Shown: positions 3,694-62,728 of the stretch, piece by piece
How positions within the stretch are numbered: position 1 is the stretch's first letter
How the letters are laid out: every line of letters begins with the position of its first letter
Source of the DNA: Candidatus Bathyarchaeota archaeon
GTDB lineage: Archaea > Thermoproteota > Bathyarchaeia > Bathyarchaeales > Bathycorpusculaceae
Assembly (NCBI GenBank): GCA_963717465.1
Contig: OY970340.1
Coordinates: 1,280,001-1,344,000 of the forward strand
Direction of reading: 5' to 3'
Length of the DNA stretch: 64,000 nucleotides
Translations under genes and position numbers: made by a program
Notes under the pieces: model-generated
Databases searched by the model: none
What the model saw: only the letters and a program-made list of their open reading frames with translations
What the model was told of the DNA's origin: nothing

Positions 3694-4309
3694 ATGAACT
3701 TTGTTGAAATAATGATTGGGGAGAAATTAAAAGAAGCAGATCCAGCCTTAGACATTTTAGGCTCAGACCGCAAGGTTCTACAGGTTGCTTGCCAAGACTT
3801 CACAAACTACTTAAAGTTCCATTGGAACCTTATTGGAAATGAGTCAAGCCAATGTGAAATTGTCGAAAAACTGGAAAAAATTTTCCACGAAGAACCAAAT
3901 GAACTAGAGTCTTTTCTTACTGTTTGGATTGGCATGTGGTTCAAGAAGTGGAAGGAACGTGTTAAACTGCTTATTGGAGACCAAAACGCTAAGCAAATGG
4001 AACAAAGCATCAAAAGCATTGAGTAATGCCGAGCCGTTATGGCGCAAAATCGAACACAAACAAGAACTTCAAGAAGTCGTAGTCTTTTCCCTGCTGAAGA
4101 ATGGCGAAATCTGCGGAACTGAAATCTTATCTGAAAACCTGCTAAAAATGGAACTTGGCGAGAAAAACGTTCAATCAATGACAGATAAAGAACAAGTCTT
4201 CACAATCGTGAACAACGCTTTAAGAAAAGCTCGTGAAATGGCGCAAAGCAAAGGTCCGCTTATCTTCGTAAAGATTGATAAAGGATATTATAACTCATCA
4301 AACGAGTAA
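3694..4309 (+). CDS. Hypothetical protein, split by one frameshift near 3985
   Basis: Overlapping ORFs 3694-4026 and 3929-4309 join into one protein-like ~205 aa reading. Confidence 0.65.
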
Positions 4310-4336
4310 AAATTATAACTCATCAAACGAGTAAAA
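4287..4336 (+). repeat. Perfect 25-nt tandem duplication covering the stop codon of the upstream gene
   Basis: ATTATAACTCATCAAACGAGTAAAA at 4287-4311 and 4312-4336. Confidence 0.95.
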
Positions 4337-4458
4337 ACTCATTTTTTAACTCTACATTACTTTCTTGTAAGAGTCATATTGAGTCTTACTTAAAAGCTTA
4401 AAGAAATCGTGTAGCAATAAACACTAGAACAAGAAAATGCAAAAAAGCTTGGTTGCTA

Positions 4459-4647
4459 TTAAATTACTCTTTGGCGTTGCAGCGTCTTAGTCTGCCAGGC
4501 ATAATGCCTGATAGTTGTTGTTTCACCGTAGCCGCAAGCTGCACAGCGTTTCTTTCGTACATGGTAAGCGCGTCTTCCGCATCGTCTGCATTTTATATGC
4601 ACGGTTTTGCCTTGTCGCTTACCCATTGATGGAGTGCCTTTTCCCAC
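4459..4647 (-). CDS. rpl37e: 50S ribosomal protein L37e
   Basis: GKGTPSMGKR...HIKCRRCGRRAYH...CAACGYG zinc ribbon; probable GTG start at 4647; follows lsm. Confidence 0.97.
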   Translation of the reverse strand: MGKGTPSMGKRQGKTVHIKCRRCGRRAYHVRKKRCAACGYGETTTIRHYAWQTKTLQRQRVI

Positions 4648-4652
4648 GGCGA

Positions 4653-4880
4653 TCACCTGGGCGGAGGCGAAATCAGGACTACGTTATCTCCACGAACGAT
4701 TATCAGTCCAAGTTTCATCTGGTTTTCAATCACGGTTGTATCTTCTGTTTCTTCTAAAACAAGATTTAAGTGCTGGTCGAAACCCTTCAATCTTCCTCTA
4801 AGGCTTTTTCCGCCTTTAAGTCGCACAAGTACTATTTTGCCCAAGTTTTGCTCAAGAATTTCAGTGGTCATTTCGCTCAT
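4653..4880 (-). CDS. lsm: Sm-like archaeal protein (Lsm/SmAP)
   Basis: Sm1 GRLKGFDQHLNLVL and Sm2 IIVRGDNV; conserved lsm-rpl37e pair. Confidence 0.97.
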   Translation of the reverse strand: MSEMTTEILEQNLGKIVLVRLKGGKSLRGRLKGFDQHLNLVLEETEDTTVIENQMKLGLIIVRGDNVVLISPPPR

Positions 4881-5089
4881 TCTGGAATCCTCATGTACAT
4901 TTATGTCAATCTATACTTTAACTCTTTCAATTTAAACCTATCTAAGGAGAGATTCAAATTATTGCAGGTATGTTTCCATCCATTGATATCCAAACAACCA
5001 TTTTCTGAGCATAAGTGTATATAGAAATATACGCACCGCATAGTGCACGAACTAATCATGTGCGTTCCTCATTATTTAACAGGTCTGCT

Positions 5090-9570: not shown

Positions 9571-9608
9571 ATTAGAAATATTAGAGTGAGACTGGGAGAA
9601 GGCATATT

Positions 9609-40181: not shown

Positions 40182-40191
40182 GCTTCTTCAG

Positions 40192-42421: not shown

Positions 42422-44116
42422 ATGCCAGAACATTTTATTGAATTAGCGAAATTGCTGGAAAGAATTGAAACTACAAAAAAACGGTTGGAAATTATAGATT
42501 TAACTGCTAACTTCCTTAAGACGTTGAGCTCAGACGAAGTTGAGCCTGCAATTTCAATGATGGTTGGAAGGTCATTTCCAAAGTGGAGCCAGAAAACGCT
42601 TGATGTAAACTGGTCGACTCTTACCCGCATTCTTCAAAATATAACGCGTTTTAACTGGGACCTCTTTAGGGAAGCGTTCAGCAGGACAGGTGATGTTGGT
42701 TCTGCGACAAAGGCTGTTCTTGAGGAAAGTGCAGTTAAACGGCAAGTTTTGCTGGTAGAGAAATCCTTGACTATACTGGAAGTTAGACGCCTGCTTGAAG
42801 CCATTGCTCAAGCTTCAGGTTCCGGCTCAAGAGAAAGAAAAAACCGGCTGATTACTGTGCTTTTAAGCCAGGCTAAACCGGTTGAAGCAAAATTTCTCAT
42901 TAAAATCCTCACGGGAGAAATGCGTACGGGTTTACATGAGGGTTTAATGGAGCAAGCAGTTGCCTCAGCCTTTTGGGTTCCCTTGCATCTAGTGCAGCGC
43001 GCAGGAATGATTGCCGGTGATATCGGCGAAGTAGCAGCAATAATTAAGGCGAAGGGAAGTGAAGGCTTAGAGAACATTGGCTTTAGAGTTTTTAGACCTG
43101 TAAAACTGATGCTTGCCCAAACAGCAAAGGACGTTCAAGAAGCGTTAAATGTGCAAAGTGGCAAGACAGCGTTTGAATACAAGATTGATGGCGCAAGAAT
43201 CCAAATCCACAAACAGACCAGCGAAGTGAAGATTTTTAGTCGAAGACTAACCGATGTAACTGAGAGTTTGCCAGAAATAGTTGAAAATGTAAAAGGCAAC
43301 GTTACTGCGGACTCTGTTATTATGGAGGGTGAAGTCGTGGCTTTAGACAGTGCAGGTTATCCGATTGCTTTTCAACATTTAATGCGCCGCTTCAAACGAG
43401 TCCGCGACGTAAGTCAAATGGCAAAAGAAATGCCCCTGACGCTTTACTTGTTTGATATTCTCTATTTAAACGGTGAAAGTCTAATTGGGCTGCCGTACTT
43501 GCAGCGTCGGCAAATTCTTGCTCAAAACGCGAAAGAAATCCCCTTGACAAAGCAGGTTATTACTGACCAGGTTGAGCAGGCAGCAAGTTTTCTTAATGAA
43601 GCCCTTGAAGCTGGGCATGAAGGTTTAATGGCTAAAAAGCTTGATAGTCCTTATACTCCTGGAAGTCGAGGAAAGAAATGGTTGAAAATCAAGACTGTTC
43701 TTGAACCATTGGACCTTGTTATTACAGCTGCTGAATATGGTTATGGGCGAAGAAAGGACTGGTTGTCAGATTATTATTTGTCTGCAAGAGAACCAGAAAC
43801 AGGTGGTTTTTTAACTGTGGGCAAAACTTTCAAGGGATTAACTGACGCTGAAATGATTCAAATGACTAAACAGCTCAAAGAGAATGCTCTTGGGCAAGAG
43901 GGGCATCGCGTGGATGTTCTTCCAAAGATTGTTGTCGAAGTACTATATAATGAAATTCAGAAAAGCCCAAAATACAAAAGCGAAATGGCGCTTAGATTTG
44001 CAAGAATAAGCCGAATAAGAGAGGACAAAACCCCTGAGGAATCAGACTCAATCAACAAAGTTAAGGAAATATTTGAAAAACAATTTAGGGTTAAAGGCAA
44101 ATACAAAACCAACTAA
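42422..44116 (+). CDS. lig: ATP-dependent DNA ligase
   Basis: EYKIDGAR, EGEVV, FDILY, EGLMAK, WLKIK, ALRFAR..REDK. Confidence 0.97.
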   Translation: MPEHFIELAKLLERIETTKKRLEIIDLTANFLKTLSSDEVEPAISMMVGRSFPKWSQKTLDVNWSTLTRILQNITRFNWDLFREAFSRTGDVGSATKAVLEESAVKRQVLLVEKSLTILEVRRLLEAIAQASGSGSRERKNRLITVLLSQAKPVEAKFLIKILTGEMRTGLHEGLMEQAVASAFWVPLHLVQRAGMIAGDIGEVAAIIKAKGSEGLENIGFRVFRPVKLMLAQTAKDVQEALNVQSGKTAFEYKIDGARIQIHKQTSEVKIFSRRLTDVTESLPEIVENVKGNVTADSVIMEGEVVALDSAGYPIAFQHLMRRFKRVRDVSQMAKEMPLTLYLFDILYLNGESLIGLPYLQRRQILAQNAKEIPLTKQVITDQVEQAASFLNEALEAGHEGLMAKKLDSPYTPGSRGKKWLKIKTVLEPLDLVITAAEYGYGRRKDWLSDYYLSAREPETGGFLTVGKTFKGLTDAEMIQMTKQLKENALGQEGHRVDVLPKIVVEVLYNEIQKSPKYKSEMALRFARISRIREDKTPEESDSINKVKEIFEKQFRVKGKYKTN

Positions 44117-44266
44117 CCCTCACTTTTTAAAAACCTTATTGCTTAAAATTCCTAAGAACTAAAAGAGAAAACTGGCTTTCAAAAATCCTGAAAAAAATAA
44201 GTATAGGCAAGCAAAGACCAACTAGCTTGATGTCTCTGCTATCGCCAATAATGAAAGGTTCAAGCT

Positions 44267-44785
44267 TTATGTGGCAAGCATTTTTATTATTTTCTGAACT
44301 TCTGCAACTTCAGTTCTGAGATCATCTTCAGACGTGATTCCTTGGGCAATCAGTGTTTTTGCGTGAGCTTCAAGATAACTCATCTTAGGATTTTTACGCA
44401 TGAGGTCGACTTCAATCTTCTCGTGTTTAATAACCCAAGCAATGCCGTAAGGATCAAGTTGCTTGTTGATAATGATTGTGTCTTTAGGATATGGAAAGTC
44501 AACTGTGTGTCGCTTCTTATTAAGCCACTTCGCCGCATACCAATTCATTCCGTCATAACCCGAGCCGCCTTTCTCTTCGATTCTTGAATCAACCAAAATT
44601 ACCTTCAACTTCAAGGACTTAGGAACAACAGATCGCTTCTTCATGCTTGGACGAATAATCTTTTTTGGCTTCAGCTGCGCTTCAGACTTAGAGACTGAGA
44701 TGACTTTGCCATTCTCGTTATTGAACAAATCAACAGTAATTTTGCTTTCTTCTCTCAGAGTCGAGGTAAGTGCAAAGTTGCTCAT
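44267..44785 (-). CDS. Hypothetical protein with HExxE...Y-x2-AH motif
   Basis: IKHEKIEVDLM..MSYLEAH. Confidence 0.6.
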   Translation of the reverse strand: MSNFALTSTLREESKITVDLFNNENGKVISVSKSEAQLKPKKIIRPSMKKRSVVPKSLKLKVILVDSRIEEKGGSGYDGMNWYAAKWLNKKRHTVDFPYPKDTIIINKQLDPYGIAWVIKHEKIEVDLMRKNPKMSYLEAHAKTLIAQGITSEDDLRTEVAEVQKIIKMLAT

Positions 44786-45161
44786 GCCACTTATATCAAT
44801 GCAAGCTGCACGCTTCTTTGTTTCAGTGTACGTCGTAGTAATAATTCCTCAGTATTTCTTTCTCCCAACAGCATGTAAAGCATTTATGAATCTTTAATCA
44901 GAAGCGTCAAACATTAACTATCATCAAACTATTAAGTCATGCGGCAATAGCAATAGCACTAGCAGAATTATTATTGAGACCTCTGCAACGGACAATGAAT
45001 TTCCGGAAACCGCTAAAACAACTCTTAACATAAATTGCATTTTTCGTGTTTCCAAGCTGAATAGTTTCGTCACTTAAGTGGTCGCAATTGTGAACACTTC
45101 AAGTTTATTAAAACACTTAGAACGTATTTTGTGACAGAAGTCGTGCGTGCTCTAAAAATAA

Positions 45162-46025
45162 TTGGAGAAGGTGAATAGAATGAAGTTTGATCCGAATATA
45201 TTAAACGTTAATCCGCTGTTTGCTTTGAACGAGTATATGCCCACGTATGGGGATGAATCGTTCTTTGCTGGTAATGCGGAAGAATATGTTTTGCTGTTTC
45301 TGTCTGATCGTGATGCTCTTCAAGCGGCATTACCTGAGCCTATGTTTAAAGTGGGTGAAAAACCCATTGTGAAGGTGGGGTTTACGTGGTTGAATAATTC
45401 TGCTGAGCTGGAGGGTGTTGGTGAGTATGGGATTTCCGTAGTCTTCGCCTCTGCACGGTTTGATGGGGAAAAAGATCACTTTGAAGGCGACTTTGCTTTA
45501 ATGATGCCTGAGACTAATAATTATGCTGTTGTTCATGGTCGCGAAATGTCTGGTGATGCCAAATTCTTTGTCCATATGCCTAGGCCTTACTCAACGGGTA
45601 GTAATGGCCATATGCGATGTGAGACTCGAGTGTGGAACTATGAGAATAACGCGGCAGAGTGGAAAACTTTGTATGGCGTTGATTTTGAACCAATGAAGGA
45701 ATGTGATAAAGCTGCCAAAGAAGAAATTTCAAAAATGGTTAATTCAGGACACCAGTTCACCTGGAAGGTGATATCATCCGTCGAAGGTGGCATTGAATTT
45801 GCGCATGCATATCGTTATAATTTAACGAGGAAAATAGAGCAATGCTGGCAGGGCAAATCGGGGGAATTATACCTCGGCGACATACCTAATAGAAGCTTGG
45901 TCTTGGAGCGTCACGTGATTGATGCCTTAAAGAAGCTGCCCGTGCGTGAAGTAATCGGGACATTACACTGGCGTGGCTCACTTGAGGCTATTTATGCGAG
46001 CAATCAAGGCGCTAAAATGAAGTAG
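45162..46025 (+). CDS. Acetoacetate decarboxylase-like superfamily protein
   Basis: ALQAALPEP, GREMSGDAK (Schiff-base Lys region). Confidence 0.75.
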   Translation: MEKVNRMKFDPNILNVNPLFALNEYMPTYGDESFFAGNAEEYVLLFLSDRDALQAALPEPMFKVGEKPIVKVGFTWLNNSAELEGVGEYGISVVFASARFDGEKDHFEGDFALMMPETNNYAVVHGREMSGDAKFFVHMPRPYSTGSNGHMRCETRVWNYENNAAEWKTLYGVDFEPMKECDKAAKEEISKMVNSGHQFTWKVISSVEGGIEFAHAYRYNLTRKIEQCWQGKSGELYLGDIPNRSLVLERHVIDALKKLPVREVIGTLHWRGSLEAIYASNQGAKMK

Positions 46026-46506
46026 CTATCAGATCAAACTGCAAATGTCGTATAGCAGTTGAGTTATCAATAAGATGACCCTCCTCATTTCTTTAAAATA
46101 AAGAGCATTATTTTATTTAGTGAATGAATGAAAGTTTTAATGTTTTTTCCAAACGTTGATTTTTGTTAAAAAATATTTGAGTGCAGTTTGCCCTGATTTT
46201 TAGGTGTGATGAGCGCACATGAATTGGTGGCACCTTTGAACCAATCGAGGATTACTGGTCATCTATTTTTTTTTGGATTAATATCCAATTTCTTTCCGCT
46301 GATTTTCTGCCTAGCCGACACACTTGTTTCTTTGCAACCACTATCCTCTAACCTTCTTTCTCTCTCCATCTCTTCTTCTATGGCCCTATTTTATCTGATA
46401 CAATTAAAGAAAACAAATAATGATAAATAGCATAAATGAAAATTATTGTTAATTGAAAAAATTGATATTTATACACGCGCAGATTGTGCAACAGAAGAGT
46501 TAACGT

Positions 46507-48189
46507 ATGCAGCATGATATGTCTGAAAATGGGAACGCTTGCAAGTGGGATGCTGAAGCTGATGTTATAGTGGTTGGTTTTGGTGCTTCAGGTGCAGCTG
46601 CAGCTTTAGAGGCTGCTCAGCAAGGAGCCTCAGTCTTAATAGTGGATCGTTTTCATGGTGGTGGAGCTACAGCAGCCAGTGGCGGAGTCGTCTACGCAGG
46701 TGGAGGAACAAAATATCAGAAAGCCGTGGGGTACGAGGATACTCCAGAGGAGATGTATCGCTATCTTAGACAAGAGATAAGCGACGCTGTATCAGACGAG
46801 ACACTGCGGCTATTCTGCGAACAATCAGCGGGCAATATTGCCTGGTTGGAACAAGCAGGAGTCCCTTTCGAAGCTTCCCTATGTCCCTTTAAGACTTCTT
46901 ATCCTACAGACAAGTACTTCCTTTACTTCTCAGGCAACGAAAAATACAGCCGCTACAAAGCAAATGCGAAGCCAGCACCACGCGGTCACCGAACCAGAGG
47001 AAAAGGCATTTCGGGCCTCGCACTCTTCCATGCACTGCAAAAAGCAGTACGCAGGCAGAGTGTTCAGGTTCGTTCTCAGACGCGGGTGGACCGGTTAATC
47101 TTCGATGATGACGGACAAGTAATAGGCGTAGAAGGAATATCTATTCCGCCTGGCCTTACAGCACGTCTGCACGGTGGAATCTCCTACGTCAATTCCAAGT
47201 TGACCACTTATTTACCGCCCCTGGCCATGCTGCTTCACGACATAGATAAGTTGCTCCTCAGATTGAAGGCCAAACCCTATCGCGCTAGGGCTCACAAAGC
47301 CATCATTTTAGCAGCTGGAGGCTTCATCTTTAATAAGCAAATGGTAAAAGAGTACGCTCCAATTTACTTGAATTGTTTGCCTCTGGGCACCTACGGCGAT
47401 AACGGTGCAGGCATCCGGTTGGGAGTAAGCGCGGGCGGAGTTACGTCACACATGAACAAGATTAGCGCCTGGCGATTCTATGTACCTCCAGAAGCAATGA
47501 TGCAAGGTGTACTGATCGACAAAAACGCTCAACGCATATGCAGTGAAGACCTCTATGGCGCAAAGCAAGGAGACTTTATCGCAGCGGTTGGCGGAGAAGC
47601 TTACCTGATTTTTGACAGCAAAACCTACAAGGAAGCCGTAGGAAAAATACGCGAGCAGTGCGCCTTGTTCCAGAAAATAACTATGATACCCCTGCTACTC
47701 GTAACCCGCAAGAAAGCCAAATCCTTCGTGAAACTGGCAGCCAAAATCAAAGTGCCACTGGGCGCTCTGGAACAAACAATGTCCGAATACAACACCACTG
47801 CTAGTAAGCACGAAACCGATCCGTTGGGCAAGATCGAGAAGCGCTTCGTGCCTCAGGATAAGCCGCCGTTTTATGCCATTGATTGCTCCTTCAAATCCAA
47901 GAGCGGAATACCTACCGCGTCGCTAACGTTAGGTGGCCTTGTCATTAACGAGAAGACTAGCCAAGTCGTGCGTCAAGACGGCTCATCCATTGATGGTCTC
48001 TACGCCGTAGGGCGTAACGCCGTGGGAATCACCAGCGACGGCTACTTTGCCAGCGGCAGCTCAATTGCAGACTGCATATTTTCTGGTCGACGCGCTGGTA
48101 AACACGCAGCTAGCATCCAAGCATCAACAAAAACTTTGAATGGGCGGATGGAGTTAAAGACAAATATAAACTCAATTAACACTCAATAA
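46507..48189 (+). CDS. FAD-dependent oxidoreductase, 3-ketosteroid Delta4(5alpha)-dehydrogenase-like
   Basis: VVGFGASG, GGATAASGG, LYFSGNE, AAGGF, TLGGL, GLYAVG, GYFASGSSIADC. Confidence 0.8.
   Translation: MQHDMSENGNACKWDAEADVIVVGFGASGAAAALEAAQQGASVLIVDRFHGGGATAASGGVVYAGGGTKYQKAVGYEDTPEEMYRYLRQEISDAVSDETLRLFCEQSAGNIAWLEQAGVPFEASLCPFKTSYPTDKYFLYFSGNEKYSRYKANAKPAPRGHRTRGKGISGLALFHALQKAVRRQSVQVRSQTRVDRLIFDDDGQVIGVEGISIPPGLTARLHGGISYVNSKLTTYLPPLAMLLHDIDKLLLRLKAKPYRARAHKAIILAAGGFIFNKQMVKEYAPIYLNCLPLGTYGDNGAGIRLGVSAGGVTSHMNKISAWRFYVPPEAMMQGVLIDKNAQRICSEDLYGAKQGDFIAAVGGEAYLIFDSKTYKEAVGKIREQCALFQKITMIPLLLVTRKKAKSFVKLAAKIKVPLGALEQTMSEYNTTASKHETDPLGKIEKRFVPQDKPPFYAIDCSFKSKSGIPTASLTLGGLVINEKTSQVVRQDGSSIDGLYAVGRNAVGITSDGYFASGSSIADCIFSGRRAGKHAASIQASTKTLNGRMELKTNINSINTQ
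48153..48185 (+). repeat. Diverged copy of the lig 3' end
   Basis: 27/33 identity to 44090-44122; reads VKDKYKLN* versus VKGKYKTN*. Confidence 0.8.
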
Positions 48190-48209: not shown

Positions 48210-49250
48210 GTGAATGCAGCAGAAAAAGAAGCGTTCGCTTCACAATACTACAGTAGGCAAATCACCCTAAAAGAACTAGGCGAAAAAGGACAAAAGCGAC
48301 TATCAGAGTCTAAGGTTGCTGTTGTCGGCGTAGGTGGATTAGGCACAATTTCTTCGCTTTACCTTGCTTTGTCAGGTGTAGGGTACATGCGTTTAATCGA
48401 CCAAGACACTATCGAAACCAAAAACCTTCACAGACAAATCCTATACTCTGCAGCAGATGTGAATTATCCCAAAGCAGAAATCGCACAGAAACGTTTAGAG
48501 CAGCTTAACCCGCTAATAAAAATTGAAGCCGTAACAGAAAACGTACACGCAAGCAATGCTGAACGTCTGCTTAAAGGAGTGGACTGCGTTGTCGATGGAT
48601 TAGATAACATGATGACTCGTTACCTCATTAACCGTGCATGCGTAAGACTAAAAATTCCATATGTTTTCGGCGCGGCTATCGGCATCGAGGGGAACTTATC
48701 TGTTTTTTCTCCGCCTCAAACAGGCTGCCTTGAATGCCTCATGCCTAATTTATCCGACAATAACATGCAGACTTGCAGTACCCGTGGCGTTATAGGAGCA
48801 GCTCCAGGAATAATCGGTTCCATGCAAGCAATGGAAACCATAAAAGTCCTCACAGGCATGGGTTCACCCCTAAAAGGTAAACTCATGGTCTGCGACTTCA
48901 GCGACATGTACTTTACAACAGTTGATATTTCAAGAAACTCCAAATGCCCCGTCTGCCACGGCGACTTATCTTCGCTTGGAGGTCAAGAAAAACTGGCTTG
49001 GCTTTGCGGCAGAGACACGGCAAACATAAACCCTGAAAAACCATTAAACCTAACCCTTGACGCCATCTACCCAATCGTTAGCAAACAGTTTAGTGTCCGC
49101 TTGAAATCGCGTTTAGCGCTATTGTTTGAATACAAAACCTTTGAAGTTAGCCTCTTTAACGGGGGACGCATGCTAATAAAAAATGTTAAAGATGAAAAAA
49201 CAGCTTTAGAAGCTTATCATGAAATACTTAAAAAACTGAATCAGGAATAA
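48210..49250 (+). CDS. MoeB/ThiF/HesA family adenylyltransferase with C-terminal extension
   Basis: YSRQ, GVGGLG, NLHRQ, DGLDN, CLEC, TC...GV, CPVC, LCGRDT. Confidence 0.92.
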   Translation: MNAAEKEAFASQYYSRQITLKELGEKGQKRLSESKVAVVGVGGLGTISSLYLALSGVGYMRLIDQDTIETKNLHRQILYSAADVNYPKAEIAQKRLEQLNPLIKIEAVTENVHASNAERLLKGVDCVVDGLDNMMTRYLINRACVRLKIPYVFGAAIGIEGNLSVFSPPQTGCLECLMPNLSDNNMQTCSTRGVIGAAPGIIGSMQAMETIKVLTGMGSPLKGKLMVCDFSDMYFTTVDISRNSKCPVCHGDLSSLGGQEKLAWLCGRDTANINPEKPLNLTLDAIYPIVSKQFSVRLKSRLALLFEYKTFEVSLFNGGRMLIKNVKDEKTALEAYHEILKKLNQE

Positions 49251-49267
49251 ATGTCGGTATCAGGCAG

Positions 49268-50770
49268 TTGATGAACTTGCAGAACATAGACCCAATTTAT
49301 TTCTTAACCCCAATTATCGTGATAGGATTTAGCGCTGGTTTAGTCGTTTACTGGCACGTAAAAAGAAGATTTACTCTTTGGGTGCTGCTTCTATCCCTTC
49401 TTGCCTACGCAGGCGCAATAATCACTAAAGAAGTCTTCCAGTATTTCACGCTTGTACCTTTCGAATCGGCAGTCGGAGGAAATACTGCAGCTCTCGGCAT
49501 CTACTTTGGTTTGCAGACCGTGATCTTCGAAGTCGGAGGCGCATTTCTCGTAGCTTGGTACGCTTTCTCTCACGGCAAGATTAAAGCTAACGATGCCGAA
49601 GGCTATGGCATAGGACTTGCGTTTTGGGAAAACGCCGTCCTAATAGGTGGATTTTCGCTTCTTCTTCCATACATCATCTACTACGCTACATTATCAGGAG
49701 GAGGATCAGCAGCGCAACTACTCTTCTCCTCTTTGTCTAATGCAGCCCCTGTGCTCTTCTATTCTCCTTCTAGTGCCTTACCCATAATCGGCTTCTCAAT
49801 ACTGGAAAGAGTGTCGTCTCTTCTTGTTCACTTTTCATGGGGATTCCTCTGTGTACTCGCAGTAGCATACAGGAAGAAACTTTTTCTGTGGTTAGCTTTG
49901 CCTATGGGGTTCATTGATTTTCTGGTACCGTATGCCAGCATTCTCGGCGTTCAAGTCTTTGAGACGCTTATCTTTGGATTAAGCTTGTTATGCCTTTTGG
50001 TAGCTTTAGGATTCACAAAGATGACAAGGAAAAATGTCTTGCCAACTTCCTCTTCGATTGAAGGATCCAGCAGGTCTAAATCCCTTTTCCGGACAAACTT
50101 CAAGCGGGCTATAAGCTATGGTGCGGTCTACCTTGGCACTGGCCTCGTGATCTCCATCCTTTTCGGAGGCATCTTTAGTAGTATCGCATCGGTCGGTGGG
50201 TCGGTTCCATTGGCTATATTGGAAGAGTTTCCGCTTATGCTCCCAATGTTTGTTGTCATAGGCTGCTTAGGAGGTTTGATGATCTTTGTGAGCGATAGAA
50301 GCAAGGGAGTGTACGAGTATTTGATTGCTTATGGCGTTAGCACTTACGAGATTTTCTGGTCGACTGTACAGGTCACACTTGGTCTGGTAACCATAATCCT
50401 TGCAAGTTCAATCGCTGCAAATATGGTTATGTCACTTCTGATAGGAGGATCAATACAACCAGTCATGATTGAGTTGTTGCTGATCTATACGATACCGCTT
50501 AGCTATGCTGGTGCAGCATTCATGAGTATGGCTTCTATGCTCTGGTCGTCCCTGACAGTCAGGATGGTGGGAGTTAATAGTCCAGTCGGCTTAGCCCCAA
50601 TCTTGGGGATTGTGCCTGTGCTTGCAGTTTATTTTCTAGCATTGTTTGACTCAAGCGATTTCTTGCTAATTACAGTTGGTGCGACTTTAATCTTAGTAGC
50701 GTTGGTTATCGTAATGATGGTAGTGGCGAACAAGAAGATGAGTAGAGAGAGGTTGCTGTCAGATGCTTGA
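49268..50770 (+). CDS. YhfC/PrsW-like intramembrane protease fused to an ABC-2-type permease
   Basis: GLQTVIFEVG, GIGLAFWEN, ERVSSLLVHFSWG; then SDRSKGVYEYLIAYG and RERLL. Confidence 0.75.
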   Translation: MMNLQNIDPIYFLTPIIVIGFSAGLVVYWHVKRRFTLWVLLLSLLAYAGAIITKEVFQYFTLVPFESAVGGNTAALGIYFGLQTVIFEVGGAFLVAWYAFSHGKIKANDAEGYGIGLAFWENAVLIGGFSLLLPYIIYYATLSGGGSAAQLLFSSLSNAAPVLFYSPSSALPIIGFSILERVSSLLVHFSWGFLCVLAVAYRKKLFLWLALPMGFIDFLVPYASILGVQVFETLIFGLSLLCLLVALGFTKMTRKNVLPTSSSIEGSSRSKSLFRTNFKRAISYGAVYLGTGLVISILFGGIFSSIASVGGSVPLAILEEFPLMLPMFVVIGCLGGLMIFVSDRSKGVYEYLIAYGVSTYEIFWSTVQVTLGLVTIILASSIAANMVMSLLIGGSIQPVMIELLLIYTIPLSYAGAAFMSMASMLWSSLTVRMVGVNSPVGLAPILGIVPVLAVYFLALFDSSDFLLITVGATLILVALVIVMMVVANKKMSRERLLSDA

Positions 50771-51671
50771 GCGGCAGAATGGTGCAGAGAAAATAGTTGA
50801 TAAGCGATTGTCCCAAACTGAATCGTTGCCTGTTGTGCTGCTGGATTCAGTTAGCTCAGGTTACTTTGGAAGAAAAGTGTTAGATGGCATCTCTTTTCGT
50901 ATAGACGAGCCAGCAGTGTACGTTGTCTTGGGACCCAATGGAGCTGGAAAGACAACACTGTTCAGGACGCTCGCAGGCATACTAAAGCCGTACACGGGTA
51001 GGATAGAGATAGGCGGATATCCGAGCGAGTCAAAAGAAGCAAGAGAACAGCTTGATTACATCACACACATAGACGGGATACCTGAGGGCATGAACGTCAT
51101 CAATGCCCTGAGATTTTACGCGAATATAGAAGGAGCCACGGAGGCAGACGTGAGCAGAGTGATTGAGCTACTTGAACTCAGAGATCTCAGCGCCAAGCGT
51201 TATGGTCAGCTTAGTCAGGGTCAGAAGAAGAGGGTGTCTGTAGCCAGAATTTTTCTCAAGGAGAAGAAGGTTTACTTGCTGGATGAACCCACGAGCAATT
51301 TGGATCCGAAAATGGCAAGGGAGATAAGGGAACTAATATTGGGACTCAGCAAGGATAAGGTTGTCCTTTACTCGTCTCACAACCTCTTTGAGGCACGCGA
51401 AATTGGTTCCAGGGTAATTGTGATCAAGAAGGGAAAGCTTGCCCTATTCGGTAAGATATCAGAGATTAAAACAGAGAAGTATACGATTGGGATACGTATT
51501 CTCGGCGTGCAAGATGTGGCCGGCTCCATAGGGAAAGAAGGAGACTATCACCTATTTGAGTTACAGGGACCTGAGGAAGTTCCTAGTTTAATCGCCGAGC
51601 TGTCAGGAAAAGGTGTGCAGATTCGAGAAGTTAAAGAAATGCAGAATCCTCTGGAAGAATTGTTTAAATGA
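50763..51671 (+). CDS. ABC transporter ATP-binding protein
   Basis: GPNGAGKTT, LSQGQ, LDEPT, SSHNL. Confidence 0.95.
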   Translation: MLERQNGAEKIVDKRLSQTESLPVVLLDSVSSGYFGRKVLDGISFRIDEPAVYVVLGPNGAGKTTLFRTLAGILKPYTGRIEIGGYPSESKEAREQLDYITHIDGIPEGMNVINALRFYANIEGATEADVSRVIELLELRDLSAKRYGQLSQGQKKRVSVARIFLKEKKVYLLDEPTSNLDPKMAREIRELILGLSKDKVVLYSSHNLFEAREIGSRVIVIKKGKLALFGKISEIKTEKYTIGIRILGVQDVAGSIGKEGDYHLFELQGPEEVPSLIAELSGKGVQIREVKEMQNPLEELFK

Positions 51672-51704
51672 GCAAAATGCACGAATGAGTTCGTTCGGCT
51701 ATGT

Positions 51705-52355
51705 TTATGTTCCTTTCTGCTGCTGGACCGTTTCGTAATCTTTTCGTCGGCGTTTAGCTCCACAATTTGGGCATGTCACGTTCCCCATGCCCGGAATGGC
51801 TGAACCAAAACCCATTACCTTTTCGTCCATGGCTGGAGCTTTAAAGACTTGACCGCAGTCAGGACACTTGAGTTGCTTACCGCGGTTGCGCAATACCAGT
51901 ACCACAATGACAACAACAATTACAATTACAATCACCACTGACACTATTGTCAGCAAGTTTGCCCAAGCAGGAGTTTCAACAAAAATCTGGCTCAAAGTAG
52001 CAGTTGCTTGCTGACCAGACGAATCATAAGCTACTGCTGTAATGTTGTATTCCCCAAGTGCATAGCTGTTTGTGTTGAAACTCCAACTAAAAGGCGACGA
52101 TGTATCGTTATCTTGCAAAGTGCCGTTCAGGTAGAATTCGACACGAGTCACATCGCTTGAAACCTGGGCGTTGAGGGTAAATTGCCCGTTTATATCAGAG
52201 CCAAGGCTATATCCATCAATTCTGTTAAGAGTTAACGATATGGTTGGCGTTGCAGAAACTTGAGAAGCAAAGAAGCAATACGCTAAAAAAGTCAGCAAAA
52301 TTACCAATGCAAAGACTGGTTTTAGTTGTTTTGGGAGTCGCTGTTTTTTTGGCAA
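51705..52355 (-). CDS. Single-pass membrane protein: Ig-like domain, TM, cytoplasmic zinc ribbon
   Basis: Signal peptide, VTRVEFYLNG..PFSWSF..ITAVAYD, Val/Ile TM, CPDCG..CPNCG. Confidence 0.8.
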   Translation of the reverse strand: MPKKQRLPKQLKPVFALVILLTFLAYCFFASQVSATPTISLTLNRIDGYSLGSDINGQFTLNAQVSSDVTRVEFYLNGTLQDNDTSSPFSWSFNTNSYALGEYNITAVAYDSSGQQATATLSQIFVETPAWANLLTIVSVVIVIVIVVVIVVLVLRNRGKQLKCPDCGQVFKAPAMDEKVMGFGSAIPGMGNVTCPNCGAKRRRKDYETVQQQKGT

Positions 52356-52609
52356 TAAACTTCCTCCAGCTAAATCTGTTATTTAGATTCAGAGTTTCTT
52401 AAAAATATTCTTATCATAAAGAAAAATCTTGTTTTTCTCTATCTAAGATAGAAAAACTGTCCTAACTTAAACCAAAGATTCATCGATTTTTAAGAAATAA
52501 CTGCAGGGTTCATTTTTGGACTATAATTAAGATCAAAAAAAGCTACTCATAGAAAAGTCAAACATTTCCTGAGTTGGAGTATAAAAAGTATCATTTTTCG
52601 GGGTCTTGT

Positions 52610-52650
52610 TTAGAATAGTTTTAACCTAGGCTTAATTCGATCCATAACAC
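52610..52650 (-). repeat. Diverged copy of the arsB 3' end
   Basis: Reads VLWIELSL(G)LKLF* versus VLWIELSLGLRLF* at 53938-53979; 17-nt exact core CTTAATTCGATCCATAA. Confidence 0.9.
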
Positions 52651-52798
52651 ATGCGCGATTAAGCCAAAAAGAGACTTTTTATTCAAGCATTATTTTTTGC
52701 ATTTAAATTGTTAATGGAATGCCTGTTTTTGTTTTGGGATGGATTTGGGTATAATTCTGAAAAAGTTATTTAAGCTTTTTTGAAAAAGTTAAACCGGC

Positions 52799-53755
52799 AT
52801 GGTTAATTTTCCGTTCAAAAGAACCATCCTAATCTTGTTGGATGTAAGAAAAAACGGGTTTATCTATACCCTAAACACTGCATTAATATTTTCTTTTCAA
52901 GCATTAAACCCACGTCGTATATATCTGCCTAAGCAAAGGCTAATCAAAGTTAACGGGTCTTGGATGCTTGTATACCCAAAAAAGAAAGGCATTCAATTAG
53001 ACCTGTATTTGTGTAGGGAAAGAGAGCCTTTATGCACAAAAATCCTACTAAATAATGCAATTATTAAGCAGGGTGACTGCATACTTGACATTGGCGCAAA
53101 CATTGGCTACTATGTATTACTTGAATCCAGACTTGTCGGTGATTTTGGTATCGTGTACGGGGTTGAACCAGTAAAAACAACCTTTGCGCTCTTAAAAGAG
53201 AACGTGTCGTTGAATAGGCGCAGTAATGTCGAATTGCACAATTTAGCTGTTGGCGATAAAAATGAGCAAGCGGAAATTTATGTTTCAGATAAGAGTAATC
53301 TTAGCGCAATGAGGAAAGAAGCTAGCGGCGGCACTATCTTAGGAACTCAAGCAGTTAATGTTATCACTATTGATTATTTTTTGGTAGGTAAACGCTTTCC
53401 CAATTTGATCAGAATGGACGTTGAAGGTTACGAGTATGAAATAGTGAAGGGCATGGAGAAGACACTGCAGAAAGCGGATGATCTTTGGGTAATGATAGAA
53501 CTACATGTATCGCCTAAACAATCAACGTGGGAACACGTTACTGAAATACTTTCTACACTTGAGAAGAACAATTTTAAAATTAGATATGTGATTTATAATC
53601 GTTCAGTGAAGGATAATAAAGTATTTCAGTATTTGCGGCACGGATTTGGGACGCCTTTTCCCTACATAGCAAGGGATATCTCCTACTCCAAGTTGCTAGA
53701 GTTACTTAAAGGTCAGCAAGAAGGCCCAAACATTCTGTTTCAGAAACAGAACTAG
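52799..53755 (+). CDS. FkbM-family methyltransferase
   Basis: DIGANIGYY, VEP, RMDVEGYEYEI. Confidence 0.92.
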   Translation: MVNFPFKRTILILLDVRKNGFIYTLNTALIFSFQALNPRRIYLPKQRLIKVNGSWMLVYPKKKGIQLDLYLCREREPLCTKILLNNAIIKQGDCILDIGANIGYYVLLESRLVGDFGIVYGVEPVKTTFALLKENVSLNRRSNVELHNLAVGDKNEQAEIYVSDKSNLSAMRKEASGGTILGTQAVNVITIDYFLVGKRFPNLIRMDVEGYEYEIVKGMEKTLQKADDLWVMIELHVSPKQSTWEHVTEILSTLEKNNFKIRYVIYNRSVKDNKVFQYLRHGFGTPFPYIARDISYSKLLELLKGQQEGPNILFQKQN

Positions 53756-53937
53756 CCTTAGCATCCCTTTTTGAGATGGCAACTCAGAAATCAACATTTT
53801 ATTTCACCATCGTATCTTCCACATTAATGCCGCTGCAGTTTTGGCAGAAAACCAGTTTTCCTAACAAACTCGATTTATGACCGTCATTTAAGAAAAAGTT
53901 CAATCTGCGGTTGCTCGGCATGAGAATCAGCAAATTG

Positions 53938-55297
53938 CTAAAAAAGTCTTAACCCTAAACTTAATTCGATCCATAATACTAAAGAAGCCACAGTGACTTC
54001 AACGATGGATAAGACTGCGCCAACTTTTAGGTAACTTTTAAGGCTAATGTTTACGCCTTTTCGCTTCATTGTTTCAAGCCACATCAAAATCGCAAGTGAA
54101 CCCAGCGGAAAGAAATGTGGACCCAAATTGTTTCCGATAATGTTTGAGAAGATTAATCCCGTTAATGCTTGTCCGCTCAACCCCACAGCAGCCTGCTTGA
54201 TCGAGAGCAATCCCAGAATTGTCATTGGCCAATTGTTTATGAAACTTGCACCAACAGTGACAATTAAGCTTGGCACAAGTACGGAGAGTACAGACGGCAA
54301 ACTGCTACCCCACACAAGTGCTCTGAGATACGAAATCTACGATTCCGACATTGTTTAATCCTTGAACAACAATGAAGATGCCAAGCATGAAAATCACCAT
54401 GTCCCAATTGATTTGCTTTATTATCCGCTTGATTCCTTGGGGTTCATCTCTTGGAAAAGAGCCCTTGTTTAACGCGACCCAGTAAACTGCGATGAGAAAG
54501 ATTGCTCCTGAACAGACAACAAATGAAACTGGAACTCTTACAAACGAGGATAAGACATACCCAACATCGACAGCGATTAAAGTGGCGATGCTGATTTTTA
54601 AAAGAGCAGGAGCGATGAAATGTGATTTTTTTGTTAAATCTTCACCAAGCTCTGTAGAGTATGTTTTAGGAATTTTTTTGCGGAAGATAAAGTAGACTAG
54701 CATTAGACTGCTTGCGATAGTGGCAACTGAGACTAGACTCATTATTGTCATGTGGTCGATGAAACTGTACTTGAAAACATCTGCACTTACAATGTTCACT
54801 GGGTTACTCGTAATCAACGGCATTGCGGCGGTATCGGCAATTAACCCCGCGGAGAAAAGATACGCTAATCTTCCGTTAGAGTCAATTTTTAATTGGCTAA
54901 CAATCTCTAAAACAATCGGCGTCAAAATCAAAACTGCACTGTCATTGGCAAAAAGTATACTTACAACCGCAGTTAAGAGTGCAATGTAAAAGTATAATTT
55001 AACGCCGTCCCCATGAGCATAACCTACCACCTTTAGAGCTGCCCACTTGAAAAAGCCCATAGCATCCAAAGTCACAGATAAAGCAACAATGCCCACGAAC
55101 GCTAACGCTGCATCCCAAATAGTCATGACCGAAGTTAACGCGTCGCTAAACGCAACAGTCCCAAGCAGAAGCGAAGCTAAAGCCCCAATTCCCGCAACTA
55201 AACCAAGCTTAATTCCTCTAGGTCTTCGAATCATAAGAAAAAGAGTGGCTGCAAAGATTGAAAGCGAAATCACCGAAACGTAATTCACCCAAGTCAC
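53938..55297 (-). CDS. arsB: ArsB/NhaD family transporter, frameshift near 54330
   Basis: LDAMGFF, FANDSAVLILTP, FINNWP, NNLGPHFFPLGSLAILMW. Confidence 0.85.
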
Positions 55298-59123: not shown

Positions 59124-59140
59124 CACTTAAAGTTTAGCAT

Positions 59141-60052: not shown

Positions 60053-60223
60053 TATTTCGCCTTAAAGTGAATTATATCAACGTCAAATCATGAGATATAT
60101 ATTTTTACTTCATTCTTACGGCTTTTCATACTTAATCCATCGCATTTCAGACATTTCTGCTCAAATTTTCCCATCGACGATTATTCCGTTTAGGGAATAC
60201 ATGATTTATTAACGATTGATGAT

Positions 60224-61657
60224 ATGGATGGTTGGGCGAAAAGGGGAAGGCTTCAAACTTACATGCGTAAACTATTACCTAGAAGCTTCAAGTCAGTTTA
60301 CTTGCTATTCCTAGTACCTATTTTTCTAGCGGTACTATCCTGGCTTTATTTCCCCACTGTAGCTACCTGGATTATCGCTAACGTATTTCACTACCTGGCA
60401 CCTGCGTCAACAGCAAATCCAGTTTGGATGGGATTTGTCAGTTTCTTTTACAGTTGGTACACTTTAGCAATTGGAATTTCAGGCTTGTGGGTTGTAGCTG
60501 CTTACTTGTCAAGAAAAAAGCAACATGTGGAAAATGGGCATGGATTCAATCCTCTTGTTTCATTCATCATTCCAGCATTCAATCAGGAGAAAAACATTGC
60601 ACGATGCATCCGATGCCTTTTCAAATGCACAGAAAAATACGACGGCATATGTGAAGTCATAATTGTGGATGATGGCAGTACAGATGAAACTTACAAAGCA
60701 GCAGCAAGAGAAATACAACTGGGAAAAACTTCGCATCCGCTCATTGGAGCAAAAATTTGTCGGCATTTGTCAAATTTAGGTAAAATTGAAGCTTTAAAAA
60801 CAGGTAAGAACCGTGCAATGGGCGGTTTAATCGCGATCGTAGATGCTGATTCTGAATGGGCGCCTGAAACTCTGTTTTGGCTTGTAAATTACAAGCTTGC
60901 AAATGGCAAAAAAGCTTTAACAGGTTATGTTCATCCGAACGGGCAAGATTCTCATGGTAATTTGCTTGTAACTTTGCAGCGGTTGGAGTATAGTCAAAGC
61001 TTAGGCGTATGTCGCGCCGCTCAGAGTTTAGGAGATAATGTGTCTGTTGTCTCTGGAGCGATTGGGCTTTACGACGCTGATTTGCTTCGAAACATCTTGG
61101 CAGAAGGAAACATTCACAGTATAACCGAAGATTTGGAAATTACTCTTGAAATGCGTAAAAGAGGCGTAAAAGCCGAATACGTTAATTTTGCAAGAAGTGA
61201 CACTGTTGCACCTGTAAGTTTAAACGCGCTATGGCATCAGCGCTTACGATGGTTTACTGGCTGGTTACATAACACGTCTGGGATTTATCGTGATTTAATG
61301 AAAAAGCGTTCATGGTTCTCGGCCCTTATATGGTACTGTTACATATTCGAGTTTGCAGGCGCATTCATTTATTTGGGAACATTAATTTCATTCCCGTTTT
61401 TGTGGTATTTTTCCCCTGACCCAGTTCAATTCGGATTAAACTTACTAGTGTTTATTCCATACGGCTTAGTGATCAGCGTAATTAATCAAGCAATAGCATT
61501 AAAGTTTGCTTATGGCAGTTATACCTTTGGCGACTTACTATTCTATACACCACTTAACATTTTCCTAAGGTTAATCAACATGTTTGCGCGTTCTGAAAGC
61601 GTAGTCAGATATTTAATGGGAAACAACGGAAATTGGCATGGAAATTGGAAGAGTTAA
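60224..61657 (+). CDS. Processive GT2 glycosyltransferase (PgaC/cellulose synthase-like)
   Basis: DDGS, DAD, TED, QRLRW motifs flanked by TMs. Confidence 0.9.
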   Translation: MDGWAKRGRLQTYMRKLLPRSFKSVYLLFLVPIFLAVLSWLYFPTVATWIIANVFHYLAPASTANPVWMGFVSFFYSWYTLAIGISGLWVVAAYLSRKKQHVENGHGFNPLVSFIIPAFNQEKNIARCIRCLFKCTEKYDGICEVIIVDDGSTDETYKAAAREIQLGKTSHPLIGAKICRHLSNLGKIEALKTGKNRAMGGLIAIVDADSEWAPETLFWLVNYKLANGKKALTGYVHPNGQDSHGNLLVTLQRLEYSQSLGVCRAAQSLGDNVSVVSGAIGLYDADLLRNILAEGNIHSITEDLEITLEMRKRGVKAEYVNFARSDTVAPVSLNALWHQRLRWFTGWLHNTSGIYRDLMKKRSWFSALIWYCYIFEFAGAFIYLGTLISFPFLWYFSPDPVQFGLNLLVFIPYGLVISVINQAIALKFAYGSYTFGDLLFYTPLNIFLRLINMFARSESVVRYLMGNNGNWHGNWKS

Positions 61658-61706
61658 ACAGCGAAAGATTTTAACTACCCTTCAACTAATGAGGGCTGAA
61701 TTTACC

Positions 61707-62463
61707 ATGATTAAAGCAGTTTTATTCGACTTATTTGATACTTTGCTCTTAATAGAAAAAAGAAAAGGTTATAATTTCCGCGAAAAAAGTCGCCAAGGAG
61801 GCGATGTTGCCTCAGGTTTAAAAAAAATGCATAGTTTCTTAGTTTCAAAAGGCGTTAATGTTACTTTTGAAGAATTCTATCAAGCATACGTGGAGGCTCG
61901 TGATGCCCTTTATGCTAAGGCTGATGTGAATCTTGAGGAGCCTCATTTTAATGTTAGAATTGTTGACACCTTAAAGAAACTTGGCTTTAACTGTGACATT
62001 TCAAGTTCAATTGTGACTGGGGCAACATGCGTTTTTTATGAGGAATTTATGAAATACGTTCAAATTGATGAGTATGCTAAATCAGTTTTAGAAAAACTGC
62101 ATAAGGAAATACAAGCTTGGAATAATCTCAAACTTTGCAATTCCAGAGTGCGCATTAAAATTATTGTCTTTGCACGGTTTGGACGAACTGTTTGATTTGA
62201 TTGTTATTTCTGGTGCAGTTAACAAGCGTAAGCCAAGTCCAGAAATTTTCATGGATGCTTTAAAGGCGCTTGGAGTTTCTGCTTCCGAAGCGGCGTTTGT
62301 TGGTGATACAGCTGATGCGGATGTTGCTGGCGCAAAAGCGGTTGGCATGTGTTCAATTTATCTTAAGAGGCGTCTTGAGGAAGATTTAGAGATGTATCAT
62401 CCTGATTATATCATTGATAGTCTGAATGACTTGCCAGTTTTGCTAAGCAAAGTTAGTTTTTAA
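61707..62463 (+). CDS. HAD-family hydrolase, frameshift near 62105
   Basis: FDLFDT / KPSPEIF, VGDTADAD. Confidence 0.88.
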
Positions 62464-62602
62464 TGAATTTGGTTTTTAATTTTAGAATATTCTAATTATT
62501 GCTGCAATTTCGGAATAAACTTAATATGGATGCATGCTTGTAGGGTGTATTGTGATATATGATATTGGATATTAATATCCAATAAATGGAAGTTATAAGA
62601 AA

Positions 62603-62710
62603 ATGGATGAACAATTAAGCAAAGAAGAAATACGCTGGCTTGTTGTTAAATCAATGCTTGATGAATTTCCAAAATTAAGACGCAAAGTCAAGAATTACCT
62701 TTCTCAATAA
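62603..62710 (+). CDS. Candidate 35-aa small protein
   Basis: MDEQLSKEEIRWLVVKSMLDEFPKLRRKVKNYLSQ*, amphipathic helical pattern. Confidence 0.5.
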   Translation: MDEQLSKEEIRWLVVKSMLDEFPKLRRKVKNYLSQ

Positions 62711-62728
62711 AGATTTCTCAATAAAGAT
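62701..62728 (+). repeat. Perfect 14-nt tandem duplication covering the small ORF stop codon
   Basis: TTCTCAATAAAGAT x2. Confidence 0.9.

What the first reader, a model, noticed from the sequence alone, without database searches (positions are those of the whole stretch)
4287..62728. Synthesis: recurrent duplicated gene 3' ends may mark an integrase-free gene capture/loss mechanism
Seen: two clear cases where accessory DNA sits between a gene's current 3' end and a diverged 30-40 nt copy of the same end with its stop codon (lig, arsB). There are also two perfect stop-spanning duplications with nothing between them (4287, 62701) and one weak case (nrdG). No integrase or transposase is in the window. 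Established: integrative elements can restore a target gene's 3' end, and homology-facilitated illegitimate recombination anchors foreign DNA on a homologous gene. Inference: repeated events at unrelated protein genes suggest a general gene-end-targeted uptake route, with empty duplications as scars.
Basis: partly seen in the sequence, partly recalled or inferred. Interest (0 to 1): 0.75.

Follow-up and report, generated by a model that had tools for sequence, protein, structure and literature searches.

The report
Leftover gene tails from DNA uptake
Two genes in this uncultured archaeon are followed, one to four thousand bases later, by a differently spelled copy of their own last codons, likely left behind when DNA from a relative was spliced in without an integrase; such scars are rare and of a known kind, and one of them likely survives because it holds the next gene's promoter.

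Summary
The lig and arsB tail copies are real (27/33 and 34/42 identical), and relatives have empty sites: lig abuts thiF in 19 of 29, arsB abuts thiF in 16 of 30. The nrdG case is noise. The two perfect stop-spanning repeats fit ordinary slippage filtered by frame selection. A codon-aware test over this genome plus 2.0 Mb of a relative finds a small excess (14 against 4-6 in controls). I picked 14 stranded tails by eye: 21-161 nt, mostly synonymous differences, no shared edge motif, no recombinase found in the cargo. Best reading: homology-anchored, integrase-free uptake from relatives, visible only when the joint spares the gene; it is not a gene-end-seeking machine, since 40 of 42 gene ends beside clean insertions show no tail. 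New here: the lig tail likely doubles as the thiF promoter. Its TATA-like word is kept in 59 of 60 adjacent loci and in 15 of 17 stranded positions, but lost from 15 of 16 displaced coding tails. The scan has reported such scars on other DNA.

The parts
42422..44116 (+). lig, ATP-dependent DNA ligase (564 aa); current tail 44090-44122 reads VKGKYKTN*, with a TAC Tyr codon (no TATA-like word)
   Evidence: Pfam
44117..48152 (.). cargo A, 4.0 kb: orphan 172-aa gene (-), acetoacetate-decarboxylase-like gene, FAD-dependent 3-oxosteroid-dehydrogenase-like gene
   Evidence: orphan in 0 of 119 genus genomes; FAD enzyme in 0 of 200 family genomes, with homologues up to 83% identical elsewhere
46507..48189 (+). 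FAD oxidoreductase that lacks its own stop: 17 homologues end within about 10 residues of GKHAA, while this one runs about 20 aa further, through the lig copy in another frame; places the right-hand joint near 48110-48152
48153..48185 (+). stranded lig tail (VKDKYKLN* in lig frame) holding AAAGACAA-ATATAA, a predicted BRE/TATA about 41 nt before the thiF start
48210..49250 (+). thiF/moeB, adjacent to lig in most relatives
49251..52609 (.). cargo B: membrane protein, ABC ATPase and Ig-domain protein; no thiF tail copy
52610..52650 (-). stranded arsB tail, VLWIELSLG(-1 nt)LKLF*; 6 of 7 substitutions synonymous, the seventh is K, the relatives' consensus
52651..53937 (.). cargo C: FkbM methyltransferase (52799-53755, +), 37% GC
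53938..55297 (-). arsB, split into two ORFs by a frameshift; current tail 53938-53979
4287..4337 (+). perfect 25-nt tandem duplication across the stop (4307-4309) of a conserved frameshifted gene (3694-4309); likely slippage or a sequence error, not part of the uptake class
62700..62729 (+). perfect 14-nt tandem duplication across the stop of an unverified 35-aa ORF (62603-62710), inside a 320-nt gap that is 8 nt in G003

Best explanation
The lig and arsB copies are stranded gene tails, likely the resident gene ends left behind when DNA from a related lineage recombined into the conserved gene and brought its own version of the gene end plus extra genes, with the far side likely joined illegitimately just inside the resident gene. 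Shown: the copies, the empty sites, the absence of a recombinase hit, variable tail lengths, synonymous divergence between tail and copy, and the cargo gene's lost stop at the lig joint. Inferred: the donor, the anchor and the order of events. The 3' position likely needs no targeting: homology between lineages ends at the stop codon, and only joints that leave the gene whole survive. The lig copy is likely kept because the last codons of lig also carry the thiF promoter; after duplication the left copy keeps the coding role and the right copy keeps the TATA-like word. The perfect tandem repeats are likely a separate, ordinary class.
For: Empty sites: 19 of 29 (lig-thiF) and 16 of 30 (arsB-thiF). 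arsB pair: 6 of 7 substitutions synonymous, P 0.0004-0.008 under neutral decay. Six pairs first found by DNA alignment: 24 of 31 synonymous, P about 1e-6. Codon-aware stop-anchored test on 2,882 + 1,833 genes: score >=30, 14 downstream against 5, 6 and 4 in three controls; score >=36, 5 against 1, 0 and 0. Thirteen tails are 21-161 nt with unrelated edge sequences. No recombinase among 16 G003 proteins scanned, 15 of them cargo, and none of G000's recombinase hits falls inside its five tail-bounded intervals. FAD gene lost its stop at the joint. Promoter role: [AG]ATATA sits in the lig tail in 59 of 60 loci where lig abuts thiF at >=17 nt, although TAT is only 405 of 1,011 Tyr codons in thiF. 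It lies 35-42 nt before the thiF start in most loci, where [TA]TATA peaks among 560 upstream regions. Where lig is separated from thiF, the coding tail lost it in 15 of 16 and the position upstream of thiF kept it in 15 of 17. G003, G038 and G067 lost the lig orthologue but kept its last 41 codons before thiF. A second case of the same logic: in G003 an 11-nt TATA-like piece of a ChsH2-type gene tail is repeated about 20 nt before the next gene.
Against: No donor layout found: FkbM is not next to arsB in the four loci that hold it, and the cargo A genes are missing from the relatives searched. No close relative or reads exist to place crossover or microhomology (nearest about 74% protein identity). 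The lig pair alone shows no synonymous bias (2 of 5, P 0.26-0.51). The 14 cases were picked by eye, and the codon-aware search favours synonymous matches. A weight matrix from tRNA upstream regions scored the G000 stranded and coding tails alike (5.0 and 5.0; training median 7.7), with only a small difference in relatives (4.2 against 3.3), so the promoter reading rests on conservation and position. Most other stranded tails have no evident retained function. Relatives are not independent: many separated lig loci share one insert-borne element. From memory (papers not held), experimental products of this process mostly delete recipient DNA rather than duplicate it.
Confidence: 0.55

Rival explanations
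1. Circularised donor fragments carrying a gene's 3' part plus cargo integrate by one crossover inside the shared stretch, which duplicates that stretch (insertion with long target duplication).
For: Gives the same layout and synonymous divergence; several repeats run past the stop (6 nt for lig; 19, 27 and 40+ nt for others). Furuta et al. 2010 (PMC2853133; passages and Discussion read) describe such insertions without other mobile elements, with repeats often spanning start or stop sites.
Against: Many tails are only 21-45 nt at about 80-90% identity, short for a sole homologous crossover (general knowledge). The published examples seen in the passages are near-identical (44/46, 47/47) and carry restriction-modification genes, which these cargos lack.
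Confidence: 0.15
2. The scars are att sites or target duplications of integrative elements or casposons that later lost their recombinase, or were mobilised in trans.
For: 14 of 68 thaumarchaeal elements sit in 3'-distal parts of protein genes (PMC6563490, passages read). G003 has an 11.4-kb element bounded by an exact 12-nt repeat at a JAB-gene stop. In relatives the stranded lig copies begin at nearly the same base.
Against: Copies made by one duplication would decay at all codon positions, but these differ mostly synonymously. Lengths vary 21-161 nt with no shared edge motif. One G000 integrase has a 38-nt tRNA-like att pair, and another has repeats that also look tRNA-like. The common 5' edge at lig coincides with the edge of the conserved promoter-like word.
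Confidence: 0.12
3. A dedicated integrase-free route steers incoming DNA to the last codons of protein genes, and empty duplications are its excision scars.
For: A real 3' excess (G003 DNA test 7 against 0-3 at score >=34). No 5' mirror cases upstream of 1,205 validated starts (score >=34), against 7 of 1,855 validated ends at >=36, of which about 4 look real. Tails appear stacked behind one epimerase gene in G003. Stop-spanning tandem repeats number 4-6 in G000 against about 2.2 expected (P 0.17-0.02).
Against: Only 5 of 2,882 and 9 of 1,833 genes. 40 of 42 3' ends beside clean insertions show no repeat. No DNA-level enrichment in G000. N-termini are less conserved and starts less certain, which lowers 5' detection. 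Earlier scan notes e1-4949627 and e1-1103011 report 5' mirror scars elsewhere (not checked). Selection explains the tandem repeats.
Confidence: 0.1
4. One event made both scars: a foreign block running from a lig tail through thiF to an arsB tail was inserted between resident lig and arsB after thiF had been lost.
For: The two best cases of the genome lie within 10 kb and bracket thiF; both copies carry at most one change unlike an orthologue; G000 thiF is on a long branch.
Against: G000 is equally basal for lig, thiF, arsB and ilvC. Stranded lig tails arise in relatives without any arsB tail. It needs both ends to fall in gene tails by chance.
Confidence: 0.08

Closest known systems
Homology-facilitated illegitimate recombination (Acinetobacter, Pseudomonas stutzeri, Streptococcus pneumoniae; invoked for orphan arrays of Vibrio T6SS and Rhs loci in PMC5361080, passages read; primary papers not held)
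   Same: A conserved gene as anchor, foreign cargo, no dedicated recombinase, displaced resident 3' parts left downstream, sometimes stacked.
   Different: Archaeal housekeeping genes; stranded parts are only 21-161 nt; uptake route, anchor and microhomology not shown; retention of the lig tail as a likely promoter is an added feature.
Insertion with long target duplication (Furuta, Abe and Kobayashi 2010, PMC2853133; passages and Discussion read)
   Same: Insert under 20 kb, repeat over 30 bp of variable length, empty site in a relative, no mobile-element genes, repeats spanning the stop (which the authors link to leaving the gene intact).
   Different: No restriction-modification genes; copies only about 81-82% identical and synonymously diverged; their selected set held no archaeal case.
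Integrative elements and casposons at 3'-distal parts of protein genes in Thaumarchaeota (PMC6563490, passages read)
   Same: The gene end is duplicated and the gene stays whole.
   Different: Those are multigene elements bounded by att sites or target duplications, mostly under 26 bp; here no recombinase or Cas1 hit, diverged copies and no common site.
Gene-transfer hotspots lacking mobile elements (Oliveira et al. 2017, PMC5635113, abstract read)
   Same: Fast cargo turnover between conserved core genes (lig-thiF and thiF-arsB gaps vary across the genus).
   Different: That work describes recombination at flanking core genes in bacteria; the abstract does not mention stranded tails.

Membership tests
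Homology-facilitated illegitimate recombination product | Homologous anchor on one side, with donor-derived sequence in the current gene | tested here: inconclusive
   Synonymous divergence points to two coding alleles, but no donor layout was found
Homology-facilitated illegitimate recombination product | Illegitimate joint with microhomology on the other side | tested here: inconclusive
   Cargo gene lost its stop at the lig joint; similarity upstream of the copy not significant (p 0.39); no close empty allele
Homology-facilitated illegitimate recombination product | No dedicated recombinase in or beside the insert | tested here: met
Homology-facilitated illegitimate recombination product | Natural DNA uptake and RecA/RadA dependence | not testable with these tools
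   Needs experiments; uptake genes were not searched
Insertion with long target duplication (Furuta 2010) | Duplication over 30 bp, insert under 20 kb, empty site in a relative | tested here: met
   33 and 41-42 nt; 4.0 and 1.3 kb
Insertion with long target duplication (Furuta 2010) | Restriction and modification genes in the insert | tested here: not met
   Pfam on window proteins
Insertion with long target duplication (Furuta 2010) | Near-identical repeats | tested here: not met
   27/33 and 34/42
Tyrosine-integrase element (attL/attR) | Integrase gene at the element end | tested here: not met
   PF00589 hits at G000 910185, 1639295, 2104311 and 2397495 only
Tyrosine-integrase element (attL/attR) | Identical core shared by both ends and a recurring target motif | tested here: not met
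   Diverged copies and unrelated edges in 13 cases
Casposon | Cas1-like casposase | tested here: not met
   No hit over the cut-off in G000 (genome 88% complete)
Casposon | Terminal inverted repeats | not tested
   Only direct repeats were searched
Insertion sequence with target-site duplication | Transposase plus a short fixed-length identical duplication | tested here: not met
   DDE_Tnp_1 and Y1 hits lie outside the intervals, no IS110 or resolvase hit (other transposase families covered only); lengths 21-161 nt

The most novel reading that the evidence does not exclude
These archaea have an integrase-free gene-capture route whose joints are mechanistically steered to the last 20-160 bases of protein genes. 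It inserts small cassettes (toxin-antitoxin pairs, single enzymes), can stack them behind one gene, and splits overlapping signals so that the stranded tail lives on as the next gene's promoter.
Probability: 0.12. Interest if true: 0.7.

Novelty: new member of a known kind. Interest (0 to 1): 0.32.

Why it matters
As read here, it shows that uncultured sediment-type archaea likely gain small gene sets by imprecise recombination with relatives. It also gives a clear natural case of a coding and promoter overlap being resolved by duplication: one copy keeps the codons, the other keeps the TATA-like word. The asymmetry could help find promoters hidden in gene ends of uncultured archaea. It is not a new mobile system. 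It would matter much more if joints were shown to be actively steered to gene ends.

Tried and rejected
Shared recombinase site: lig and arsB both contain TTTAGGGTTAA, but relatives' tails lack it and 13 tail edges share nothing; rejected. Longer 5' extent of the stranded lig copy: looked plausible by eye, not significant (p 0.39 in G000; 1 of 14 tested loci under 0.05). Promoter weight matrix from tRNA upstream regions: did not separate stranded from coding tails. thiF as a foreign gene: no discordance. Donor layouts: not found in those searched. Sequencing runs: none was listed, so the tandem repeats and the 1-nt gap in the arsB copy could not be checked against reads. Candidates dropped as chance because they lie in coding starts or bodies: G000 142178 and G003 541417. 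G000 626645, a copy lacking the last codons, was not counted. In the occupied/empty test, 77 of 116 sites were dropped because the 'insert' matched DNA near the empty site (likely split genes or repeats), leaving 39; the lig site could not enter because G003 lacks the orthologue. L109, listed as stranded, is probably an intact tail. The G003 comparison covers 2.0 of 2.35 Mb. The G003 element's first protein got no Pfam, PHROG or PDB hit; its recombinase look is by eye from recalled motifs. Consensus folding of the relatives' insert element failed on a poorly bounded alignment. Literature searches for this exact signature returned no papers or nothing to the point. Two primary papers were not held. 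PMC2884548 passages added nothing. No supplements were read; Furuta's supplementary figures hold cases I did not see.
Full report
Setting. The window is G000:C1:1280001-1344000 of a 3.05-Mb single-contig genome, 88% complete, with archaeal genes. That it is a Bathyarchaeia genome is my guess; no call names it. It has many split genes: nrdD in three ORFs, arsB in two, and 147 adjacent split pairs among 1,923 genes with a G003 hit. Small indels may therefore be sequence errors. Gene calls below come from my own hexamer-model caller.

Observation. The lig tail (44090-44122) and its copy (48153-48185) match at 27 of 33 bases with the stop in register. The arsB tail (53938-53979, minus strand) and its copy (52610-52650) match at 34 of 42. 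The tandem repeats at 4287-4337 and 62700-62729 are perfect; the second spans the stop of a 35-aa ORF without homologues. nrdG has nothing above background. No recombinase lies in the window.

Empty sites. lig lies within 66 nt of thiF in 19 of 29 relatives, 5 have 390-712 nt inserts, 4 have other DNA, and 1 contig ends. arsB meets thiF within 26 nt in 16 of 30, 11 have 100-1,290 nt gaps, and 3 show no thiF within 1.5 kb. The window's cargo is therefore inserted. The orphan gene is in 0 of 119 genus genomes. The FAD enzyme is in 0 of 200 family genomes and has lost its own stop right at the joint.

Is it general? Last-45-nt windows scored >=36 downstream in 17 of 2,620 genes, against 20 (start, upstream), 23 (end, upstream), 21 and 27 (mid-gene). 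With paralogues removed the count is 2 of 2,305 against 1-3 (the short arsB piece fell under that call's length limit). In 2.0 of 2.35 Mb of G003 the same test gives 7 of 1,667 at >=34 against 3, 1, 2 and 0. A codon-aware, stop-anchored test over 2,882 + 1,833 genes gives 14 at >=30 against 5, 6 and 4, and 5 at >=36 against 1, 0 and 0. From these lists I picked 14 tails by eye: 5 in G000 (lig, arsB, and genes at 84881, 535250, 1536299) and 9 in G003. The 13 measured are 21-161 nt long, with unrelated 5' edges; with arsB they differ at 79 synonymous and 43 non-synonymous positions. The six first found by DNA alignment give 24 of 31 synonymous. Cargos are small genes, three times PIN-type toxin-antitoxin pairs, with no recombinase hit. 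Against generality: at 39 clean occupied/empty sites (of 116 before filtering), 0 of 42 3' ends had a diverged copy at >=26 and 2 of 42 had an exact repeat >=10 nt (inner control 0 of 42; 5' ends 1 of 36). None of 16 relatives with DNA inserted between thiF and arsB has a stranded arsB or thiF tail. The class is real but rare, about 0.2-0.5% of genes, and most insertions leave no tail.

What the divergence says. A target duplication starts with identical copies, and the dead copy should decay at all codon positions. The arsB copy differs at 6 synonymous positions and 1 conservative position, where it carries the relatives' consensus lysine (P 0.0004-0.008). Both tails were therefore likely coding until recently, in different lineages. 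This is what homology-anchored uptake with an illegitimate far joint would leave (mechanism as summarised in PMC5361080, passages read; primary papers not held). The lig pair alone is not informative (2 of 5 synonymous). No donor layout was found, so donor and order of events are inferred.

Why the lig tail persists. Among 109 distinct thiF loci, the word [AG]ATATA lies in the lig tail in 59 of 60 loci where lig abuts thiF at >=17 nt, but in 2 of 7 with shorter gaps; TAT is only 405 of 1,011 Tyr codons in thiF. It sits 35-42 nt before the thiF start in most loci, where [TA]TATA peaks among 560 upstream regions. In loci with an insert, the coding tail lost the word in 15 of 16 (including G000, TAT to TAC), while the position upstream of thiF kept it in 15 of 17. 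Stranded copies keep about 15 nt around the word (the alignment was anchored on it), and 13 of 24 show no in-frame stop in the eight codons from the Tyr on. G003, G038 and G067 lost the lig orthologue but kept its last 41 codons before thiF. G003 shows the same logic at a second gene: an 11-nt TATA-like piece of a ChsH2-type tail is repeated just before the next gene, 1.4 kb on; the window's 40181-40200 region is the empty site. Limits: a tRNA-derived matrix did not single the word out; relatives are not independent, as many inserts share one element; two separated loci (L078, L121) and two earlier ones (L028, L030) have no stranded tail. On quick trees G000 lies outside the group holding the other separated loci, among which empty and occupied sites intermix, so at least two events are likely; no clade test was run.

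Tandem repeats. G000 has 70 perfect tandem repeats of >=10 nt. Among those with a period not divisible by three, 28 were classed intergenic (expected 7.8), 6 coding (expected 30.1), 4 stop-spanning (expected 0.6) and 1 start-spanning. The window's two were classed intergenic because my caller missed those ends. Scaled to the intergenic excess, about 2.2 stop-spanning cases are expected: P 0.17 for 4 and 0.02 for 6. G003 has 1 of 30. Slippage plus removal of frameshifts largely explains them, errors cannot be excluded (no runs listed), and nothing links them to lost cargo.

Comparison. It works like homology-facilitated illegitimate recombination and meets the size and empty-site criteria of 'insertion with long target duplication' (PMC2853133), but not that class's restriction-modification cargo or near-identical repeats. 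It fails the integrase, casposase and transposase tests. Integrative elements at protein-gene 3' ends are known in archaea (PMC6563490), and G003 has one candidate with an exact 12-nt repeat. Earlier notes of this scan describe the same scars in other archaea and bacteria; they are unchecked leads, not support. I found no paper on this exact signature, which miss most subscription journals.

Verdict. Real local scars of a known kind, a small recurring class in the genus, no evidence for a targeting machine, and one specific inferred twist (tail kept as promoter). Interest 0.32.

Noticed in passing
lig-thiF inserts of L072, L186, L156, L163, L150, L161, L170, L176, L178, L168, L169, L157, L164, L038; partial hit at G000:C1:298411-298528: Shared non-coding element: a leftward TATA-like promoter, a palindrome (GCTACTAC...GTAGTA) and a 92-112 nt stem-closed structure with a pyrimidine loop (folding z -3 to -8 against mononucleotide shuffles in 8 loci; no Rfam hit in the 5 loci scanned). 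G000 has only the palindrome and promoter part, before a protease-like gene (my reading). Candidate small RNA.
   Followed up: partly
G003:C1 about 997225-1008614 (L259-L260): 11.4-kb element bounded by an exact 12-nt repeat that includes the stop of a JAB-domain gene. Its first gene (353 aa) looks like a tyrosine recombinase by eye but has no Pfam, PHROG or PDB hit; a second copy at 32% identity lies at G003 1462304.
   Followed up: partly
G003:C1:498846-502719 (L234-L235): Sugar-epimerase-like gene followed by what look like three toxin-antitoxin cassettes separated by two stranded pieces of its own 3' part: a stacked array.
   Followed up: partly
G003, G038, G067, G043 (L160, L153, L152, L166): The lig orthologue is deleted except for terminal pieces; a second ligase at 32-34% identity is present elsewhere.
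   Followed up: partly
window 58588-58637: A 50-nt stretch with an internal direct repeat that has about 7 similar copies in the genome, all outside called genes; possibly a binding site or element end.
   Followed up: no
window 18079-20211, 53938-55297, 55412-56516, 61638-62463, 3694-4309: nrdD, arsB, ilvC, a HAD gene and a conserved hypothetical gene are split by frameshifts; 147 split pairs genome-wide suggest long-read indel errors.
   Followed up: partly
window 46507-48189: 3-oxosteroid-dehydrogenase-like FAD enzyme at 50% GC, with homologues up to 83% identical in metagenomes; some at 63-68% are labelled Chloroflexota or Dehalococcoidia. Likely a recent gain.
   Followed up: partly
window 33788-39442 (-): 1,884-aa DUF4011 / AAA helicase / REase_MTES_1575 / DUF3320 protein, also present in G003 at 70% identity.
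   Followed up: no
G000:C1:909856-916658 and 2397254-2413976: Integrase-bearing elements with direct repeats of 38 and 21-23 nt that look like tRNA ends.
   Followed up: no
window 37391-37432 and 9537-9571: Further tandem duplications: a perfect in-frame 21-nt pair inside the helicase gene and a near-perfect 17-nt pair between genes.
   Followed up: no
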